Assembly: GCA_035503055.1 (NCBI GenBank)
Contig: DATJTV010000072.1
Coordinates: forward strand, 1 to 56,877
DNA from: Acetobacteraceae bacterium
Lineage (GTDB): Bacteria > Pseudomonadota > Alphaproteobacteria > Acetobacterales > Acetobacteraceae
DNA: 56,877 nt
Direction: 5' to 3'
Of this stretch, positions 135 through 56,877 are shown piece by piece. The position numbers were made by a program, and so were the translations under genes. Below the pieces are notes generated by a model. It did not search any database. It had not been told where the DNA came from and saw only the letters and a list, made by a program, of their open reading frames with translations. Position 1 is the stretch's first letter. Each line of letters opens with the position of its first letter.

Positions 135-266
135 CTCTAGGTCGTTGTTTTCCCGCGCGATTCGCGCCTTCGGTTACACCACCTTCGGCGATCGCGCTCT
201 AGGCCTTTGTTTTTCCCGCGCGATTCACGCCTTCGGTTACACCACCTTCGGCGGTCGCGCTCTAGG
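135..266. repeat. Tandem 62/63-bp repeat: units 135-196 and 197-259 plus the first 7 bp (CTCTAGG) of a third
   Basis: Hand alignment of the two units gives 4 mismatches and 1 indel. It starts 13 nt after the IS110 stop codon. The partial third unit contains the stop codon of the permease gene (262-264). An inverted copy lies at 50520-50587. Confidence 0.9.
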
Positions 267-49781: not shown

Positions 49782-49899
49782 CTTCGAGTCCACGGGATTA
49801 GCTGCGCTTCGATTTGTCACTGGACCCTCCTTTAGCGGGGTTTTCCAGGGGCAAGCCCACGACATCGGCGCCTCTAACCGAGGCTATTGGGCTGGCCTT

Positions 49900-50462
49900 T
49901 CAGTACCGCCCGCCTGCCGAGCATAAGCCCGCCTTCAGTTCTCCCGCAACCGTCAAACTGGAGACCGGCGGCAGCAGCCGGAATGCCATGATGCTGGCGA
50001 GGATTTCCTGGGACAGGCCGCGCGGCATCGCGACCTCAGCGATCTCGAAGGCGAACGACCGGCCATGCCGCGCGATCCTGGCGCCGATCTTCGCCAGCCG
50101 GTCCGCGGGGTCGTGAGCGACCACTGCCTAACCTCCTCGGGCAGCGCCGGGATGCGCAGGAAGTTGGCGAGGTTGTAGGCCAGTTCGTGCAGTTGCAGCC
50201 GAATCGCATTGGCGGCGAAGCGATGACAGGACAGCCGCATCCAGGTCACGGTGTTCTTGCCCTCTTTGATCGGCTGCTCCGCCGTGCCGCGGTGATTGTG
50301 GCATGCCACCACACGGCAGGCGCGGCTTCACGACCAGGCCTGGTAGCTGAAGCTGGCGTAGTAGCGGCGCACCCCGTGCGGTGGGCGACCCCCGGGGCGC
50401 CTGACAAGCCACGAGATGCTTTCTTGCAGGACCCAATTGGCCGGCAACCGGATCGTGTATTT
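49900..50462 (-). pseudogene. IS1380-family transposase remnant (5'-truncated, internal deletion, frameshift)
   Basis: Three frame pieces were found: KYTIRLPANWVLQESISWLVRRPGGRPPHGVRRYYASFSYQAWS*, then HNHRGTAEQPIKEGKNTVTWMRLSCHRFAANAIRLQLHELAYNLANFLR..LPEEV..WSLTT, then a shifted-frame tail ..LAKIGARIARHGRSFAFEIAEVAMPRGL. These match remembered conserved IS1380 transposase blocks. Confidence 0.7.
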
Positions 50463-50477
50463 CTAACCTACGGCCTT

Positions 50478-50587
50478 TCTAGAGCGTGATGGGTAAGCAC
50501 GAGCGATCCCATCCCGCTTCTAGAGCGTGATCGCCGAAGGTGGAATCACCGAAGGCGTGAATCACGCGGGAAAACAAAGACCTGGAG
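50478..50587. repeat. Inverted copy of the 62-bp repeat seen at 135-266 (full unit 50520-50587), plus an extra TCTAGAGCGTGAT fragment at 50478-50490
   Basis: The reverse complement of unit 135-196 aligned by hand to 50526-50587 gives about 8 mismatches in 62 bp. Confidence 0.85.
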
Positions 50588-50629
50588 CGGAACGGGCTCG
50601 AGGCGCTCGGTCGGTCAGCAGTGCTGTCC

Positions 50630-50649
50630 CATGTTTCACGTGAAACATG
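50630..50649. other. parS: parS-type centromere site: perfect 20-bp palindrome CATGTTTCACGTGAAACATG containing TGTTTCACGTGAAACA
   Basis: Positions 50632-50647 are identical to the chromosomal ParB-binding consensus TGTTNCACGTGAAACA. The site is intergenic. Confidence 0.75.
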
Positions 50650-50671
50650 AGCCTAATCAATATCGTAACGC

Positions 50672-50713
50672 AAAACCCGGGGGGACGGCGCCGAGGCGCG
50701 CGCTGTCCCCCCC
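50672..50713 (-). terminator. Rho-independent terminator after the M20 amidohydrolase gene
   Basis: On the minus strand, an 8-bp stem GGGGGGAC/GTCCCCCC enclosing a GC-rich loop, then GGGTTTTGCGTT. It starts 5 nt after the stop codon. Confidence 0.55.
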
Positions 50714-50717
50714 AAGC

Positions 50718-51890
50718 TCAACTCCGCGCCAGCTCCTGCTCGACGAGGCTGGCCCAATATGAAGCGCCGATGGGCAGAATCTCGTCGTTGAAATCATATT
50801 CGGGATGGTGCGCCGGCGTGCGCCCCGCGCTCTTGCCGCCCTGGCCGATGCGCACGAAGCAGCCCGGCACCGCGTTCGCCATGTACGAGAAATCCTCGCC
50901 CCCCATGCGCGGCGGCACGCGCCGGACGAGGTGCTCTTCGCCCACGATCTTCGCCGCGGCGCGGGCGGCGCGCTCCGTCGGCTCCGCCGCGTTCACCACC
51001 TGCGGATAGCCGCGGTGGTATTCGAGCACGCCCTCCGCGCCGTGCGCGGCGGCGATCGAGCGGACGATCTCGCCCATCTGCCGCTCGATCTCGTCCTGCA
51101 CGGCGGGTTTCAACGTGCGCACCGTGCCGTTGAGCGTCGCATCGGGGGGAATGACGTTGCCGGCGCTGCCGGCGTGGAACTGGGTCGTCGAGATCACTGC
51201 CGAATCGATCGGATCGACGCGCCGCGCGACGATCGTCTGCAGCGCGAGCACGATCTGGCTGCCCACCACCACCGGGTCGATCGCGTGGTGCGGCCGTGCC
51301 GCATGGCCGCCGCGGCCGCGCACACGGATCCAGAACCGGTCGGCAAACGCGTTGAGCGCGCCCTCCATCACCACCATCGTCCCCACCGGCACTGCCGGAT
51401 CGTTGTGCGCGCCATAGACGGCGTCGCAGGGGAAGCGCTCGAAGAGCCCCTCCTCCACCATCACCCGCCCGCCGCCGCCGCCCTCCTCGGCCGGCTGGAA
51501 GATGAAATGGACGGTGCCCTCGAAATTGCGCGTCTCGGCGAGATATTTCGCGGCCCCCAGCAGCATCGCCGTATGCCCGTCATGGCCGCAGGCATGCATC
51601 ACGCCCGGGTTCGTCGAGCGGTGCGCGAACTGGTTGATCTCCTCCATCGGCAGCGCGTCCATATCCGCGCGCAGTCCGATCGCGCGGGGCGAGCAGCCGT
51701 TGCGGAGCGTGCCGACGAGGCCGGTTCCGGCGATGCCGGTGGTGACCTCGATCCCCCATGCGGCGAGCTTCTCCGCCACCAGCGCGCTGGTGCGCCGCTC
51801 CGCGAAGCCGAGCTCCGGATGGGCGTGGAGATCCTGCCGCCAGGCGGTGACCTCGGGTGCCAGATCGGCGATGCGGTTGAGCACCGGCAT
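50718..51890 (-). CDS. M20D-family amidohydrolase (hippurate hydrolase / N-acyl-amino acid amidohydrolase-like)
   Basis: 390 aa. N-terminal WRQDLHAHPELGFAE and ACGHDGH metal-binding motifs. Confidence 0.85.
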   Translation of the reverse strand: MPVLNRIADLAPEVTAWRQDLHAHPELGFAERRTSALVAEKLAAWGIEVTTGIAGTGLVGTLRNGCSPRAIGLRADMDALPMEEINQFAHRSTNPGVMHACGHDGHTAMLLGAAKYLAETRNFEGTVHFIFQPAEEGGGGGRVMVEEGLFERFPCDAVYGAHNDPAVPVGTMVVMEGALNAFADRFWIRVRGRGGHAARPHHAIDPVVVGSQIVLALQTIVARRVDPIDSAVISTTQFHAGSAGNVIPPDATLNGTVRTLKPAVQDEIERQMGEIVRSIAAAHGAEGVLEYHRGYPQVVNAAEPTERAARAAAKIVGEEHLVRRVPPRMGGEDFSYMANAVPGCFVRIGQGGKSAGRTPAHHPEYDFNDEILPIGASYWASLVEQELARS

Positions 51891-51925
51891 GAGCCAACCC
51901 TCCTCTTTCGTTACAGCGCGTTTCC

Positions 51926-53155
<1,230 letters not shown>

Positions 53156-53332
53156 CGCCGCTTGCTCCGCCTCATCACCGCCGGTCGGGCGGAGTAACAA
53201 GCCGCCCTGGCCGCGGCAAGCGCGCGCCTCCCGCCGAGCCATGCGGGCGAGGCCAAAGGGGCGAGGAGGTTGCGGCGCGGAAGAAAATAGGGTTTGTCGC
53301 CCCGGTTCCCCTCCAAGGAAAGCCGCCTGGGC

Positions 53333-55939
53333 ATGACGCTTGCCACGCTGCTCGCCCGCCTCGTCGATTGGAGCCGCAGGCACGCCGCTCTTGTCGTCGG
53401 CGCGGGGGTGATCCTTGCCGTGCTCGGGTGCCTCTATTCCGCCGCCAATCTCGGCATCATCACCGACACCGACCAGATGTTCCCGAGCAGCCTGCCCTGG
53501 CGGCAGCAACAGATCGCGCTCGAGCGCGCCTTTCCCCAGTTCAGCAATCTCCTCGTCGTCGTGCTCGATTCGCGCGTGCCGGAGGCGGCGCAAGCCACGG
53601 CCGCCGCGCTCGTCAAGGCGCTCGACCAAGATCCCGGGCATTTTCGCTCCGCGCGCGATCCCGAGGCGCTGCCCTTCTACAGCCGCGAGGGCCTGCTGTT
53701 CCTTTCCGAGCCCAAGCTCCGGACGCTGCTCGATAATCTGATCACCGCCCAGCCGCTGCTCGGCCAGCTCGTCGCCGACCCGACCGGGCGCGGGCTCTTC
53801 TCGGCCCTCTCGCTGATGGCGCTGGGGCTCGCCCATGGGGGCGTCGATCTCACGCCCTACGCGCCCGCCTTCGACGCCATCCACCAGACGATGCAAGCCG
53901 CGCTGGCCGGCCATCCGGAGCCGCTTTCCTGGCTCAACCTCCTCTCGGGGCCGGCGCTCGCGCAGGCGGGGACCAGCCGCATCGTGCTGGTGCAGCCGAA
54001 GCTCGACTACAGCAAGCTCGAGCCCGGAGGTGCGGCGACCGCGGTGCTGCGCAAGATCGCCGACGGGTTGCCCTTCGTGCAGCAGGGCCTCGTCCATGTC
54101 GGCATCACCGGGCAGATCGCGCTTTCGGACGACCAGTTCGCGAGCGTGCTGAAAGGCGCCGTGGTCGGCACGATCGCGACCCTCCTGCTCGTCACGTTCT
54201 GGCTCTTCCTCGCCGCCCGGAGCTGGCGGATCGTCGTGCCGATCGCGCTCACCCTCCTGCTCGGCCTCGTGCTCACCACCACCTTCGCCGCCGTCGCGAT
54301 CGGCACGCTCAACCTCGTCTCGGTCGCCTTCGCCATCCTCTTCGTCGGCATCGCGGTCGATTTCTCGATCCAGTTCAGCGTCCGCTTCCGCGAGATGCGC
54401 TTTCTCACGGGCCAGACGCCGGCCGCACTCGCCGCAACCGCCGCCGGCGCGGGCAGCCAGATCCTGGTGGCCTCGCTCGGCGCCGCGGCCGGCTTCCTCG
54501 CCTTCGTGCCGACCCAGTTCCGCGGCGTCGCCGAGCTCGGGCTGATCGCCGGCGTCGGCATGCTCATCGCGTTCGTCTGCACGATGACCTTCCTCCCCGC
54601 GGCACTCAGCCTCTTTCATCCGCACGGCGAGCGCGCCGAGATCGGCTTCGCCGCCTTGGCGCCGCTGGAGAAGGGGCTCGCCAGGCGCGCCCGCGCCGTG
54701 CTCGGCATCTTCGCAGCCCTTGCCGTGCTCGGCGTCGCGGTGCTGCCGCGCGTCGCCTTCGACGGCGACCCGCTCGATACCCGCAACCCCCACTCCGAGC
54801 CCGTGATCGTGCTCCGGCGGCTGATGAAGAACCCGGTCACCAACCCTTACAGCGCTCAGATCCTGGCGCCGAGCGTTGCCGCGGCGGGCCGGCTCGCCGC
54901 CGGGCTCCGCAAGTTGCCGGCGGTCGACACGGTGCTCTCGGTGCAGTCCTTCGTGCCCGCCGACCAGAACCGAAAGCTCGGGCTGATCGCGGACGCGGCC
55001 GATATCCTGGCGCCCACGCTCTCGGCCGAGGACCGGACGACGCCGGTGACCGTGGCCGAGCTGAGGCTCGCCCTCCGCACCGCGCTCAGCTCGTTCGCCG
55101 AGGCGCTGCCGAAGCTGCCGCCGGGCGCACCGCTCGGCGTGCTGGCCCAGGATCTGCGGGCGCTCGAATCCGCGCCCGACCCGGTGCTGATGGCGGCGAA
55201 CGAATCGCTCACGCGCTTCCTGCCCGATCAGCTCGCCCGGTTGCGCGCGGCCCTTTCGGCCGAGCCGGTGACGCTGGCCGACCTGCCGGCCGCGCTCGAG
55301 CGCGACTGGGTGCTGCCGGACGGGCGCGCGCTGGTCGAGGCCCTGGCCAAGCCGGGCGAACAGAGCAGCCAGGGGCTCGGCCGCTTCGTCGCCGCCGTCC
55401 GCACGCTCGCGCCCAACGCGGGCGGGCCGGCGGTCAACATCGTCGGCAGCGCCGATATCATCGTGGGCGCCTTCCGCACCGCGGCGATCAGCGCGCTGAT
55501 CGCCATCGCCGTGATCCTCGGCCTCGCGCTCCGCCGCCCGCGCGACGTCGCGCTGGTGATGGCCCCACTCCTGCTCTCCGGGCTTCTCACCGCGATCCTG
55601 ATCGTGCAGCTCCCGCTGCCCATCAACTTCGCGAACATCATCGCCCTGCCGCTGCTGCTCGGCGTCGGCGTCTCGTTCAACGTCTATTTCGTGATGAACT
55701 GGCGCACCGGCGGGCGGCAGTTCCTCACCTCGGCCACCGCGCGCGCGATCCTCTTCTCGGCGCTCACGACGGGCACCGCCTTCGGCTCGCTCGCGCTCTC
55801 GGCCGACCGCGGCACCGCCACCTTGGGCACGCTCCTGCTCCTCAGCCTTGGCGCCACGCTGCTCGCGACCTTCTTCTTCGTCCCGGCGCTGCTCGCCGCG
55901 GTCACGCCCGATCGGCCGGAAACGCGCTCTCCTCCCTGA
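53333..55939 (+). CDS. hpnN: MMPL/RND-superfamily transporter, hopanoid-associated HpnN-like
   Basis: 868 aa from ATG 53333. It has two 6-TM bundles with large periplasmic loops. The assignment is supported by the adjacent hpnK-like gene and was not checked by search. Confidence 0.65.
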
Positions 55940-56825
55940 CGATCTCGGCCACCGCCTCGAGCGCCGTTCTCACCTCGGGGTCCAGCAGCGCCGCAAGCTC
56001 CGCCTCCTGGCGATAGCCGGGCATCAGGTCCCGCAAGGGCGGCTCCCGCCGTACCGCAGGATGGAAATAAAGCTCGGAAAGCCCCGCCGGCAGATGCGGC
56101 GCCAATGCCTTCACCCGCGCCGCATCCATCTGCCCGCTCCAGCGGAGGCCGAACACCGCGTCCGGCGCCCGCATCCCCGCCCGCCTCACTTGCCGCGCCA
56201 GCACCCCGCTCCACGACGCGAGCGCCCGCTCGCCCAGCCCTACCTGCTCGCCGCACGCCGCCAGCACCTCAGGCGGCTCCCGCGGCACCCGCACCCTCTC
56301 CAGCCCGAACTCGCGTCCGATCTCCACCATCATCCGCCCGACAACCGGATGCAGATGCATGTGCTTGTGCGCATCCGCATGATCGAGCCGAAGACCCGTC
56401 TCCACGAAGGCCGCGAACTGCGCCCTTATCTCGGCGGCCAACTGCCGCCAAAACACCAAATACCGAACCCCCAACCCCACCTGATCCGAGGAAAACCAGC
56501 CCCGCCCATCGACGAGACCGGGAATCCGCCACCGCGGCAACACCGCCTTCCCCTCGATCACCACGAGATGCAAACCAACCCGCAGGCCAGGCAAAGCCCG
56601 CGCCCGGCGCACGGCATCCAAGGCCGCCGGGCCGGCCACCATCAAACTCGCCGCCCCCAACACACCTTCCCGATGCGCCCGCTCAACCGCCTCGTTGACG
56701 CCCTCGGACAGCCCGAAATCATCGGCCGTCAGCAGGACGCGCCTGAGTAGAGCGGTGGGTGGTAAGGCCAAGGGGGCTCCGCCCCCCTGGACCCCCTGCC
56801 AGGGCCTGGAGGCCCTGGACCCCAT
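55902..56825 (-). CDS. hpnK: YdjC/ChbG-family deacetylase-like protein, hopanoid-associated HpnK-like
   Basis: [18 protein letters not shown]...G.L.AASLMV YdjC N-terminal motif and the [10 protein letters not shown] region. The start is uncertain (ATG 56825 or in-frame TTG 56771) because the first ~18 codons run through REP-like palindromes. Confidence 0.7.
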
Positions 56826-56877
56826 CCGTTTGGTGGCGGCAGAGGGCGGTCCGCCTGCGAGCGGTTCGCTCGCAGGC
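56772..56877. repeat. REP-like cluster of GC-rich palindromes at the window edge
   Basis: CCAGGGCC-TGGA-GGCCCTGG at 56799-56818 and a perfect 11-bp stem GCCTGCGAGCG-GTT-CGCTCGCAGGC at 56853-56877. The GGGGCTCCGCCCCCCTGGACCCC-type sequence resembles dispersed GC-rich repeats. Confidence 0.5.

What the first reader, a model, noticed from the sequence alone, without database searches (positions are those of the whole stretch)
50630..50649. Perfect consensus parS (ParB centromere) palindrome with no partition genes in sight
Positions 50632-50647 read TGTTTCACGTGAAACA. This is identical to the canonical chromosomal ParB-binding consensus TGTTNCACGTGAAACA. The flanking bases extend it to a perfect 20-bp palindrome, CATGTTTCACGTGAAACATG. 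A specified 16-mer is expected about 1e-5 times in 57 kb under uniform base composition, and less in DNA this GC-rich, so it is not a chance match. The site is intergenic. It lies exactly at the junction between mobile-DNA debris and apparently core genes. The debris is the IS1380 remnant, the 62-bp repeat and the AT-richer islet; the core genes are the M20 amidohydrolase, argG and hpnN. No parA/parB, dnaA, gidAB or rep genes occur anywhere in the window. It could be an origin-distal or outlying ParB loading site that affects SMC recruitment and local ParB spreading or silencing. Alternatively it could be a centromere carried in by mobile DNA.
Basis: partly seen in the sequence, partly recalled or inferred. 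Interest (0 to 1): 0.7.

Follow-up and report, generated by a model that had tools for sequence, protein, structure and literature searches.

The report
Lone chromosomal parS centromere site
A perfect copy of the DNA site that the chromosome-partitioning protein ParB normally binds sits alone, tens of kilobases from any partition gene, in an uncultured Acetobacteraceae bacterium; it is almost certainly a real ParB site, but isolated extra sites of this kind are already known in other bacteria.

Summary
CATGTTTCACGTGAAACATG is at 50630-50649, and its central 16-mer is the exact parS consensus. It is the only match in the window. No shuffle reproduced it, and about 1e-6 matches are expected by chance.

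The window is a metagenomic contig from an Acetobacteraceae bacterium. Related par loci use the same 16-mer: 15 of 17 informative loci carry a parS pair, 37 bp apart, at the 5' end of gidB just upstream of parA-parB. The host ParB is therefore expected to bind this site.

The window has no parA, parB, gidA, gidB, mnmE, dnaA or rep genes. In a sister genome (94% nucleotide identity) the same 20-mer lies at the same place. It is the only parS in 58 kb there, and no par genes are present.

The site lies on the conserved side of a rearrangement breakpoint at 50596/50597. It was therefore not brought in by the IS1380 and repeat debris. Relatives at 83-87% protein identity lack it.

Best reading: an extra, outlying ParB loading site. 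Its distance from parAB and from the origin could not be determined. This is a known kind of feature and of low to moderate interest.

The parts
50632..50647 (.). parS core: TGTTTCACGTGAAACA, an exact match to the chromosomal ParB-binding consensus TGTTNCACGTGAAACA
   Evidence: The identical 16-mer occurs at parAB loci of family relatives.
50630..50649 (.). Perfect 20-bp palindrome, CATGTTTCACGTGAAACATG, that contains the parS core
   Evidence: It is identical in the sister genome at L002 11238-11257. The two extra palindromic base pairs have about a 1/16 chance expectation, and the parS sites at L012 do not share them.
50597..50643 (+). Remnant of the 3' end of a second M20-family dipeptidase gene. 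The gene is intact (463-465 aa) in the sister genome. Its TGA stop (50641-50643) lies inside parS. The window copy has a 1-nt deletion and lacks the rest of the gene.
   Evidence: and the L163/L167 gene calls.
50596..50597 (.). Synteny breakpoint. To the right, 94% identical to the sister genome. To the left, unrelated DNA.
   Evidence: The junction is present in two independent assemblies that differ by 19 SNPs spread over both sides, so it is not an assembly chimera.
50667..50713 (-). G+C-rich hairpin (50679-50713) followed by GGGUUUUGCGUU, immediately after the M20 stop codon. This is the probable transcription terminator of the argG-M20 unit. parS lies 20 nt beyond it.
   Evidence: Fold (MFE -46.4 kcal/mol for the 101-nt stretch, z = -3.25). 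The simple consensus scan did not call it, so it is inferred. It is conserved in the sister genome.
50718..51890 (-). M20 amidohydrolase / aminoacylase gene. Its stop codon is 71 nt from parS.
   Evidence: Pfam PF01546/PF07687. TIGR01891 at 366.6 bits, above the cutoff.
51926..53155 (-). argG (argininosuccinate synthase)
   Evidence: NF001770, 624.6 bits.
53294..55939 (+). hpnN (hopanoid RND transporter)
   Evidence: TIGR03480, 923.7 bits.
55902..56825 (-). hpnK (YdjC-like hopanoid biosynthesis protein)
   Evidence: TIGR03473, 354.1 bits.
50477..50592 (.). Short interspersed (REP-like) repeat units that abut the breakpoint. The core at 50520-50583 is 89% identical to window 139-202 and 211-265.
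   Evidence: Copies are also in L004, L010, L011, L173 and L176.
49953..50312 (-). C-terminal remnant of an IS1380-family (DDE_Tnp_1_4) transposase
   Evidence: E = 6.5e-19; profile positions 325-392 of 435.

Best explanation
The palindrome is a genuine chromosomal parS. It is a nucleation and loading site for the host's ParB, and it lies apart from the family's usual parS pair beside gidB-parA-parB.

Inferred mechanism, from established ParABS biology and not tested here:
1. A CTP-bound ParB dimer recognises the 16-bp inverted repeat through its helix-turn-helix domain.
2. It closes into a clamp and slides onto a few kilobases of flanking DNA. Here that would be the M20-argG-hpnN genes on one side and the repeat/IS debris on the other.
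3. The resulting ParB patch can join the main partition complex or act as an additional SMC loading point.

Shown here: the sequence identity, its non-chance status, its isolation from par genes and from other parS sites, its presence at the orthologous position in a sister genome, use of the same 16-mer at par loci of the same family, and its position on the conserved side of a recent rearrangement.

Inferred: ParB binding, spreading, and any contribution to segregation.
For: - The match to the consensus is exact, is the only one in the window, and was never reproduced by shuffles. About 1e-6 copies are expected per window.
- Family-level positive control. In L012 (Acetobacteraceae), mnmE-gidA-gidB-parA-parB is confirmed by Pfam, with two exact TGTTTCACGTGAAACA sites at the gidA/gidB junction.
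- 17 metagenomic loci have a ParB at least 61% identical to L012's and enough upstream DNA. Of these, 15 have one or two sites with 0-2 mismatches at -1.45/-1.40 kb from parB.
- Background is essentially zero. No other site with up to 2 mismatches occurs in 1.38 Mb of loci fetched through the neighbouring gene.
- The same 20-mer is at the same position in the sister genome, which is 93.7% identical in nucleotides. The surrounding non-coding stretch is only about 88-89% identical.
- The site is isolated. Nothing else with up to 3 mismatches is in the window or in the 58.5-kb composite of the sister contig, and no ParA, ParB or DnaA domains are among the genes called there.
- Dispersed parS sites bound by ParB are documented. 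B. subtilis has 10 sites, 8 in the origin domain. P. aeruginosa has 9-10 sites, 4 near oriC (PMC7022226).
Against: - No ParB gene of this organism was seen, and no binding data exist.
- The site is absent from every relative at 83-87% M20 protein identity: L003, L004 and L180-L183. It is also missing from this position in a second strain of the sister species, where hpnN is truncated (L164). It is therefore young or dispensable.
- Conservation of 20 nt at about 88% local identity is only weakly significant (about 8% by chance).
- In Caulobacter and P. aeruginosa, extra parS sites are tolerated only within roughly 500-600 kb of the native site or origin (PMC5815017; PMC7333895). Whether this site lies in such a zone is unknown.
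Confidence: 0.72

Rival explanations
1. This is the lineage's principal or only centromere. In this reading, this clade has lost the usual parS pair at gidB, and ParB loads here, far from its own genes.
For: A related group of par loci (L107, L108, L119; G+C 0.68-0.69, like the window) has gidB-parA-parB without gidA. These loci have no parS with up to 3 mismatches within 6-10 kb on either side. Their GidB lacks the N-terminal motif that the parS site encodes elsewhere. Lineages with parS away from parAB therefore exist. In the sister genome, GC skew changes sign with origin polarity 5-8 kb from the site.
Against: Nothing links L107, L108 or L119 to the window's lineage: there are no shared repeats and no shared sequence. 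The skew switch has no DnaA-box cluster, no AT-rich stretch and no CtrA motif. Skew elsewhere on the same contig is patchy. The site is missing in close relatives and in one strain of the sister species. That is hard to reconcile with an essential sole centromere.
Confidence: 0.1
2. The site is a centromere remnant brought in by mobile DNA (plasmid, ICE or island). Any binding by the host ParB would be incidental.
For: The 3' flank of the M20 gene is a recurrent insertion and rearrangement hotspot:
- IS1380 remnant and repeats in the window.
- ParD, integrase, IS91, IS630 and toxin-antitoxin genes within 4-20 kb in the sister genome.
- A transposase, an integrase-like fragment or an antitoxin at the same spot in other relatives.
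The site occurs only in the window and sister lineage.
Against: The site is on the conserved side of the breakpoint. In the sister genome it overlaps the stop codon of an ordinary metabolic gene. No parA, parB or rep gene is nearby in either genome. There is no megablast match to 72,556 plasmids for 49800-51000. Secondary replicons characterised so far generally use their own divergent parS, for example Burkholderia chromosome II (PMC7022226 Table 1). The hotspot also exists in relatives that have no parS, so the site did not arrive with the debris seen today.
Confidence: 0.1
3. The site is not a ParB site at all. It would be a chance palindrome, an RNA hairpin or terminator between convergent genes, or the operator of another regulator.
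For: It lies between two convergent stop codons in the sister genome. It can fold as a 10-bp hairpin.
Against: The chance expectation is about 1e-6, and no shuffle reproduced it. The hairpin stem is A+T-rich and has no following T-run, and the terminator scan found nothing. A separate G+C-rich hairpin with a U-tract already follows the M20 stop codon. There is no Rfam match. The identical 16-mer marks par loci across the family.
Confidence: 0.05

Closest known systems
Dispersed or outlying chromosomal parS sites of Bacillus subtilis (10 sites, 8 in the origin domain; Breier and Grossman 2007, as cited in PMC7022226) and Pseudomonas aeruginosa (9-10 sites, 4 near oriC)
   Same: The same 16-bp consensus. 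Single sites lie tens to hundreds of kilobases from parAB and from each other. They are expected to nucleate ParB and, in B. subtilis, to load SMC.
   Different: Those sites have ChIP and genetic evidence and known map positions. Here binding is untested and the distance to the origin is unknown. The host is an uncultured alphaproteobacterium.
Alphaproteobacterial parS clusters: Caulobacter crescentus (at least 5 sites clustered about 8 kb from ori; PMC5815017) and Hyphomonas neptunium (2 sites, TGTTTCACGTGAAACA; PMC7022226 Table 1)
   Same: The core sequence is identical to the Hyphomonas and Caulobacter consensus. The taxonomic class is the same.
   Different: Those sites are tightly clustered beside parAB. 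This one is at least 28-50 kb from any par gene or other parS.
The parS pair of this family (Acetobacteraceae and relatives) at the 5' end of gidB, upstream of parA-parB (found here in L012, L084, L085, L089, L098, L099, L112 and others)
   Same: The same 16-mer, often exact.
   Different: The family pair lies inside the gidB coding sequence, has a fixed 37-bp spacing and is conserved across many lineages. The window site is single, lies at the 3' ends of metabolic genes and is restricted to one species-level lineage.

Membership tests
Chromosomal parS (ParB-binding centromere-like site) | 16-bp inverted repeat matching TGTTNCACGTGAAACA | tested here: met
   0 mismatches at 50632-50647.
Chromosomal parS (ParB-binding centromere-like site) | Occurrence beyond chance | tested here: met
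   0 of 100 shuffles. About 1e-6 expected per window. No stray sites in 1.38 Mb of control loci.
Chromosomal parS (ParB-binding centromere-like site) | A cognate chromosomal ParB (ParB_N + HTH_ParB + ParB_C) encoded by the same genome | not testable with these tools
   Only a 56.9-kb contig is available. No ParB was found in the window or in 58.5 kb of the sister contig. Family relatives do encode it.
Chromosomal parS (ParB-binding centromere-like site) | The same sequence is used at bona fide par loci of the host's relatives | tested here: met
   15 of 17 informative loci have sites with 0-2 mismatches at the gidA/gidB junction 1.4 kb upstream of parB.
Chromosomal parS (ParB-binding centromere-like site) | Location in the origin-proximal part of the chromosome | tested here: inconclusive
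   No dnaA, parAB or oriC signature was found in the DNA available. GC skew is patchy and contradictory between the window and the sister genome.
Chromosomal parS (ParB-binding centromere-like site) | Specific binding by ParB in vivo or in vitro | not testable with these tools
   This needs ChIP-seq, EMSA or BLI.
Chromosomal parS (ParB-binding centromere-like site) | Conservation at the orthologous position in related genomes | tested here: inconclusive
   Present and identical in the sister genome. Absent in six relatives at 83-87% M20 protein identity and in more distant ones.
Plasmid or mobile-element partition cassette (parA-parB-parS) | parS adjacent to its own parA/parB, or to rep or transfer genes, on the mobile segment | tested here: not met
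   No such genes are in the window or in the sister locus. The site lies on the conserved side of the breakpoint. There is no plasmid match.
Intrinsic transcription terminator | G+C-rich stem-loop followed by a T-run | tested here: not met
   The parS stem is A+T-rich with no T-run, and the scan found none. The neighbouring hairpin at 50679-50713 fits better.

The most novel reading that the evidence does not exclude
The site could be a recently created or relocated centromere. In this reading, a rearrangement at a recombination hotspot placed a perfect parS tens of kilobases or more from parAB in one Acetobacteraceae lineage. The site would then act either as the main ParB/SMC loading point or as an ectopic one that reshapes chromosome arm alignment. 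That would be a natural counterpart of the engineered ectopic-parS experiments in Caulobacter and Pseudomonas. The origin-polarity GC-skew switch 5-8 kb away in the sister genome would then mark a nearby origin of unusual composition.
Probability: 0.1. Interest if true: 0.55.

Novelty: new member of a known kind. Interest (0 to 1): 0.25.

Why it matters
If ParB binds here, this bacterium has a ParB/SMC loading point well away from its partition operon. In the alphaproteobacterial model Caulobacter, parS placement is tightly restricted, so a naturally outlying site in a relative could show how much freedom exists. The comparison also shows how a centromere-like site survives next to a rearrangement hotspot. 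On present evidence, however, it is one more predicted parS site. Its significance depends on its map position relative to the origin, and that could not be obtained.

Tried and rejected
- **GC skew to place the origin.** The window changes from + to - at about 50.6 kb. The sister contig changes from - to + at 1.191-1.194 Mb. Other samples of that contig are patchy, and no DnaA boxes, AT-rich stretch or CtrA motifs are present. Rejected as uninformative.\n- **L012's M20 gene 1.5 kb from parB as evidence of ancestral linkage.** Both neighbours differ from those in the window. One locus in 80 is about what chance would give. It succeeded through ids from the listing of cluster members and reached -28/+30 kb. 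No par genes were found.\n- **Finding the sister genome's ParB.** Not attempted. The 120-hit limit of the homologue search made success unlikely, and none of the retrieved par loci shares repeats with the window.\n- **Other searches.** Plasmid megablast gave no match. Rfam gave no match. Livny et al. 2007 (PMC2168934) is not held.\n- **Flanks of the site compared with flanks of the gidB sites.** There is no similarity beyond the 16-mer, so no sign of a duplication from there.

Full report
**1. Observation**

Window 50630-50649 reads CATGTTTCACGTGAAACATG, a perfect 20-bp palindrome. Its central 16 bases (50632-50647) match the chromosomal parS consensus TGTTNCACGTGAAACA exactly.
- It is the only match in the 56,877-base window, even with three mismatches allowed.
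- None of 100 dinucleotide-preserving shuffles gave the 20-mer, or the 16-mer with up to one mismatch.
- From the window's composition (68% G+C), about 1e-6 copies are expected per window and about 8e-5 per 5-Mb genome.

**2. Source and gene content**

The window is a metagenomic contig. An almost identical contig, ENA ERZ27256462 k141_1915954, differs by 19 SNPs over the 16 kb that could be compared. The SNPs lie on both sides of the site, so the local arrangement is not an assembly artefact. The nearest relatives of its genes are Acetobacteraceae MAGs.

To the right of the site:
- M20 amidohydrolase, 50718-51890, minus strand
- argG, 51926-53155, minus strand
- hpnN, 53294-55939, plus strand
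- hpnK, 55902-56825, minus strand

To the left:
- short interspersed repeats, 50477-50592
- the C-terminal remnant of an IS1380-type transposase, 49953-50312
- a lower-G+C stretch with a fasciclin-domain gene and a hypothetical gene
- about 48 kb of ABC uptake systems and sugar or acid catabolic genes

tblastn with MnmE, GidA, GidB, ParA and ParB from a relative found nothing in the window. No DnaA or replication-initiator domain appeared in any likely gene.

**3. What ParB recognises in this family**

One relative fetched through the M20 gene (L012, Acetobacteraceae) happens to carry mnmE-gidA-gidB-parA-parB. All five were confirmed by Pfam. It has two exact TGTTTCACGTGAAACA sites, 37 bp apart, at the gidA/gidB junction.

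Using its ParB to fetch par loci from metagenomes, 17 loci had a ParB at least 61% identical and enough upstream DNA. Fifteen of them carry one or two sites with 0-2 mismatches at -1.45 and -1.40 kb from the parB start. The longer loci show no further sites within 6-10 kb.

The family norm is therefore a tight pair inside the 5' end of gidB, made of the very sequence seen in the window. This is the best available evidence that the host ParB binds the window site. It remains an inference, because the host's own parB was not seen.

L012's M20 gene has different neighbours on both sides, and one locus in 80 is roughly what chance would give. I therefore do not read its position next to parB as ancestral linkage.

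**4. Comparison with close relatives**

The sister genome is MAG CAVUZJ01, contig_25210 of ENA ERZ25039540, 1,425,084 bp. It is 93.7% identical in nucleotides over window 50596-56850. It has the same 20-mer at the same place.

Similarity stops at window 50596/50597, 35 bp to the left of the site. In the sister genome the DNA beyond that point is an intact second M20-family dipeptidase gene, convergent with the first. Its TGA stop lies inside parS. The window keeps only its last ~47 nt, with a 1-nt deletion.

So the site belongs to the conserved side of the junction and predates the event that brought in the repeats and the IS1380 remnant.

However, the site is young or dispensable:
- Six relatives at 83-87% M20 protein identity, and all more distant ones, lack any site with up to 3-4 mismatches there.
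- Almost every one of them has different DNA directly after the M20 stop codon. Examples are a transposase, an integrase-like fragment, an antitoxin gene and other genes.
- A second strain of the sister species has hpnN truncated and lacks the argG-M20-parS block at this position.

The 3' flank of the M20 gene is thus a rearrangement hotspot, and it is one even where no parS is present.

**5. Is it just outside a par locus?**

I walked the sister contig and assembled 58.5 kb, record positions 1,157,770-1,216,227, with no conflicts between the overlapping pieces. The site at 1,185,781-1,185,796 is the only match with up to three mismatches.

The called genes run in this order:
- left of the site: purM, purN, a proton-pumping pyrophosphatase, ABC transporters, hipBA, a RES/Xre pair, IS630, IS91, an integrase, an HPP-family gene, a ParD antitoxin and the dipeptidase
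- the site itself
- right of the site: M20, argG, hpnN, hpnK, hpnJ, hpnI, an opp-type transporter, mlaC, dxs, ispH, hpnH, parC, recO, era, rnc, lepB, acpS, relA, rpoZ and folK

No partition genes or dnaA are among them. Three further 21-kb samples of the same contig have no parS. With the window's 50 kb on the left, the site is at least 28-50 kb from any par gene or other parS. It is not part of a tight cluster just outside the window.

**6. Position relative to the origin**

This could not be settled.
- In the window, GC skew is positive for 1-50.6 kb and negative for the last 6 kb. That is terminus polarity, and the change falls exactly at the synteny break.
- In the sister genome the skew is negative for 33 kb up to about 1,191 kb and positive for the next 23 kb. 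That is origin polarity, 5-8 kb to the right of the site.
- That stretch has no DnaA-box cluster, no window below 52% G+C and no CtrA motif.
- Other samples of the same contig have inconsistent signs.
- The genome is rich in IS elements; the IS630 transposase is recorded on 42 contigs.

I treat the skew as a patchwork left by rearrangements, not as a map of the origin.

**7. Local anatomy**

On the minus strand, the M20 stop codon is followed at once by a G+C-rich hairpin (50679-50713) and then GGGUUUUGCGUU. This is the probable terminator. The fold is significant, but the simple scan missed it. The parS palindrome follows 20 nt later.

The parS hairpin itself is A+T-rich and has no T-run, so a terminator role for it is unlikely. 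There is no Rfam match anywhere in the window. No promoter-like site was found nearby, so silencing of a promoter by ParB is not an obvious consequence.

**8. Mechanism**

The best-supported reading is an additional, outlying ParB loading site. From the literature:
- ParB nucleates on the 16-bp site and spreads over neighbouring DNA as a CTP-dependent sliding clamp (PMC7053999 and PMC8367383, as listed).
- It drives ParA-mediated segregation and recruits SMC (PMC7333895).

Single sites away from the main cluster are known. B. subtilis has 10 sites, of which 8 are in the origin domain. P. aeruginosa has 9-10, of which 4 are near oriC (PMC7022226). In Caulobacter and P. aeruginosa an extra parS is tolerated only within roughly 500-600 kb of the native locus or the origin (PMC5815017; PMC7333895). 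This predicts, but does not show, that the present site lies within such a zone.

**9. Rivals**

- **Sole or relocated centromere.** Kept alive by a related group of par loci (L107, L108, L119) that have no parS within 6-10 kb. Nothing ties that group to this lineage. The loss of the site in close relatives also argues against an essential role.
- **Relic of a mobile element's partition system.** Disfavoured by the site's position on the conserved side, by its overlap with an ordinary gene's stop codon, by the absence of par or rep genes, and by the lack of any plasmid match.
- **Chance, a hairpin, or another regulator's operator.** Excluded for practical purposes by the statistics and by the family-wide use of the same 16-mer.

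**10. Verdict**

The identification as parS is sound, and so is the claim that there are no partition genes nearby.
- 'Origin-distal' is unproven, and 'brought in by the visible mobile debris' is not supported.
- This is a new instance of a known kind of element. Interest is low to moderate unless a whole-genome map shows it to be far from the origin or to be the only site in the genome.

Noticed in passing
L012 6066-6081 and 6103-6118; the same arrangement in L084, L085, L089, L090, L098-L101, L103 and L112: In this family the two canonical parS sites lie 37 bp apart inside the 5' end of gidB (rsmG). In L012's gidB reading frame, the first is read as FHVKH and the second as DVSRET. The centromere sequence and the N-terminal protein sequence therefore constrain each other.
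   Followed up: partly
L107 (8660-10813), L108 (5116-7275), L119 (2-1524): A related high-G+C lineage has gidB-parA-parB with no gidA or mnmE upstream. It has no parS with up to 3 mismatches within 6-10 kb on either side. In L108, the one copy translated, GidB lacks the DVSRET start. Its ParB must load elsewhere or recognise something else.
   Followed up: partly
L106, L109 and L110, about 0.87-1.0 kb after the parB start: A variant palindrome, TGCTTCACGTGAAGCA, lies just downstream of parB, with three copies in L110. It may be a lineage-specific parS variant.
   Followed up: no
window 139-202, 211-265 and 50477-50592; also L004 5510-5721, L010, L011, L173 and L176: A 64-76-nt interspersed repeat (ctagagcgtgatcgccgaaggtgg...aaacaaagacctagagcg) occurs in tandem units in intergenic DNA of several Acetobacteraceae. 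One block abuts the rearrangement breakpoint beside parS.
   Followed up: partly
window 56772-56833; L003 6443-6503; L004 11199-11255; L002 4952-5000: A second, G+C-rich intergenic repeat (…ccctgccagggcctggaggccctggacccc…). In L003 and L004 it occupies the spot directly after the M20 stop codon where the window has the hairpin and parS.
   Followed up: no
window about 50.0-50.6 kb; sister contig_25210 about 1,191-1,194 kb (hpnK/hpnJ): GC skew changes sign close to the site in both genomes, but with opposite polarity: terminus-like in the window and origin-like in the sister genome. No oriC features are present. This is unexplained and probably reflects rearranged segments.
   Followed up: partly
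L003, L004 and L180-L183, directly after the M20 stop codon; L167 4742-11065: The 3' flank of the M20 gene carries different mobile or accessory DNA in nearly every relative: a DUF772 transposase, an integrase-like fragment, an AbrB-type antitoxin, or ParD/integrase/IS91/IS630. It is a recurrent insertion hotspot.
   Followed up: partly
L164 5349-6329 (ERZ25039473 contig_30459): In another strain of the sister species, hpnN is truncated to 326 aa at the position equivalent to window 55185. The argG-M20-parS block is replaced by unrelated genes (TfoX, OEP, NMT1).
   Followed up: no
L166-L175 (sample ERZ25039540): One IS630-family transposase (354 aa, identical protein) is recorded on 42 contigs. 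Four copies are on the 1.4-Mb sister contig, which indicates a recent IS expansion in that community or genome.
   Followed up: no
window 1-48200: At least seven ABC uptake systems with GntR/FCD or SorC-type regulators and sugar or acid catabolic enzymes are packed into 48 kb. Only the operon at 42.6-48.2 kb is syntenic with a relative (L082, 85% identity), where its flanks are different.
   Followed up: partly
L002 10001-11230 compared with window 50718-51890: In the sister genome the M20 open reading frame is 409 aa instead of 390 aa. It diverges after residue about 377 and reads through the hairpin to within 13 bp of the convergent gene's stop codon. This could be a real frameshift or a long-read homopolymer error.
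   Followed up: no
(protein cluster look-up): The window's M20 protein is filed in a 90%-identity cluster whose representative and other listed members are argininosuccinate synthases, the product of the adjacent gene. Its own near relatives therefore did not appear in the homologue search. This looks like a database clustering oddity, not biology.
   Followed up: no
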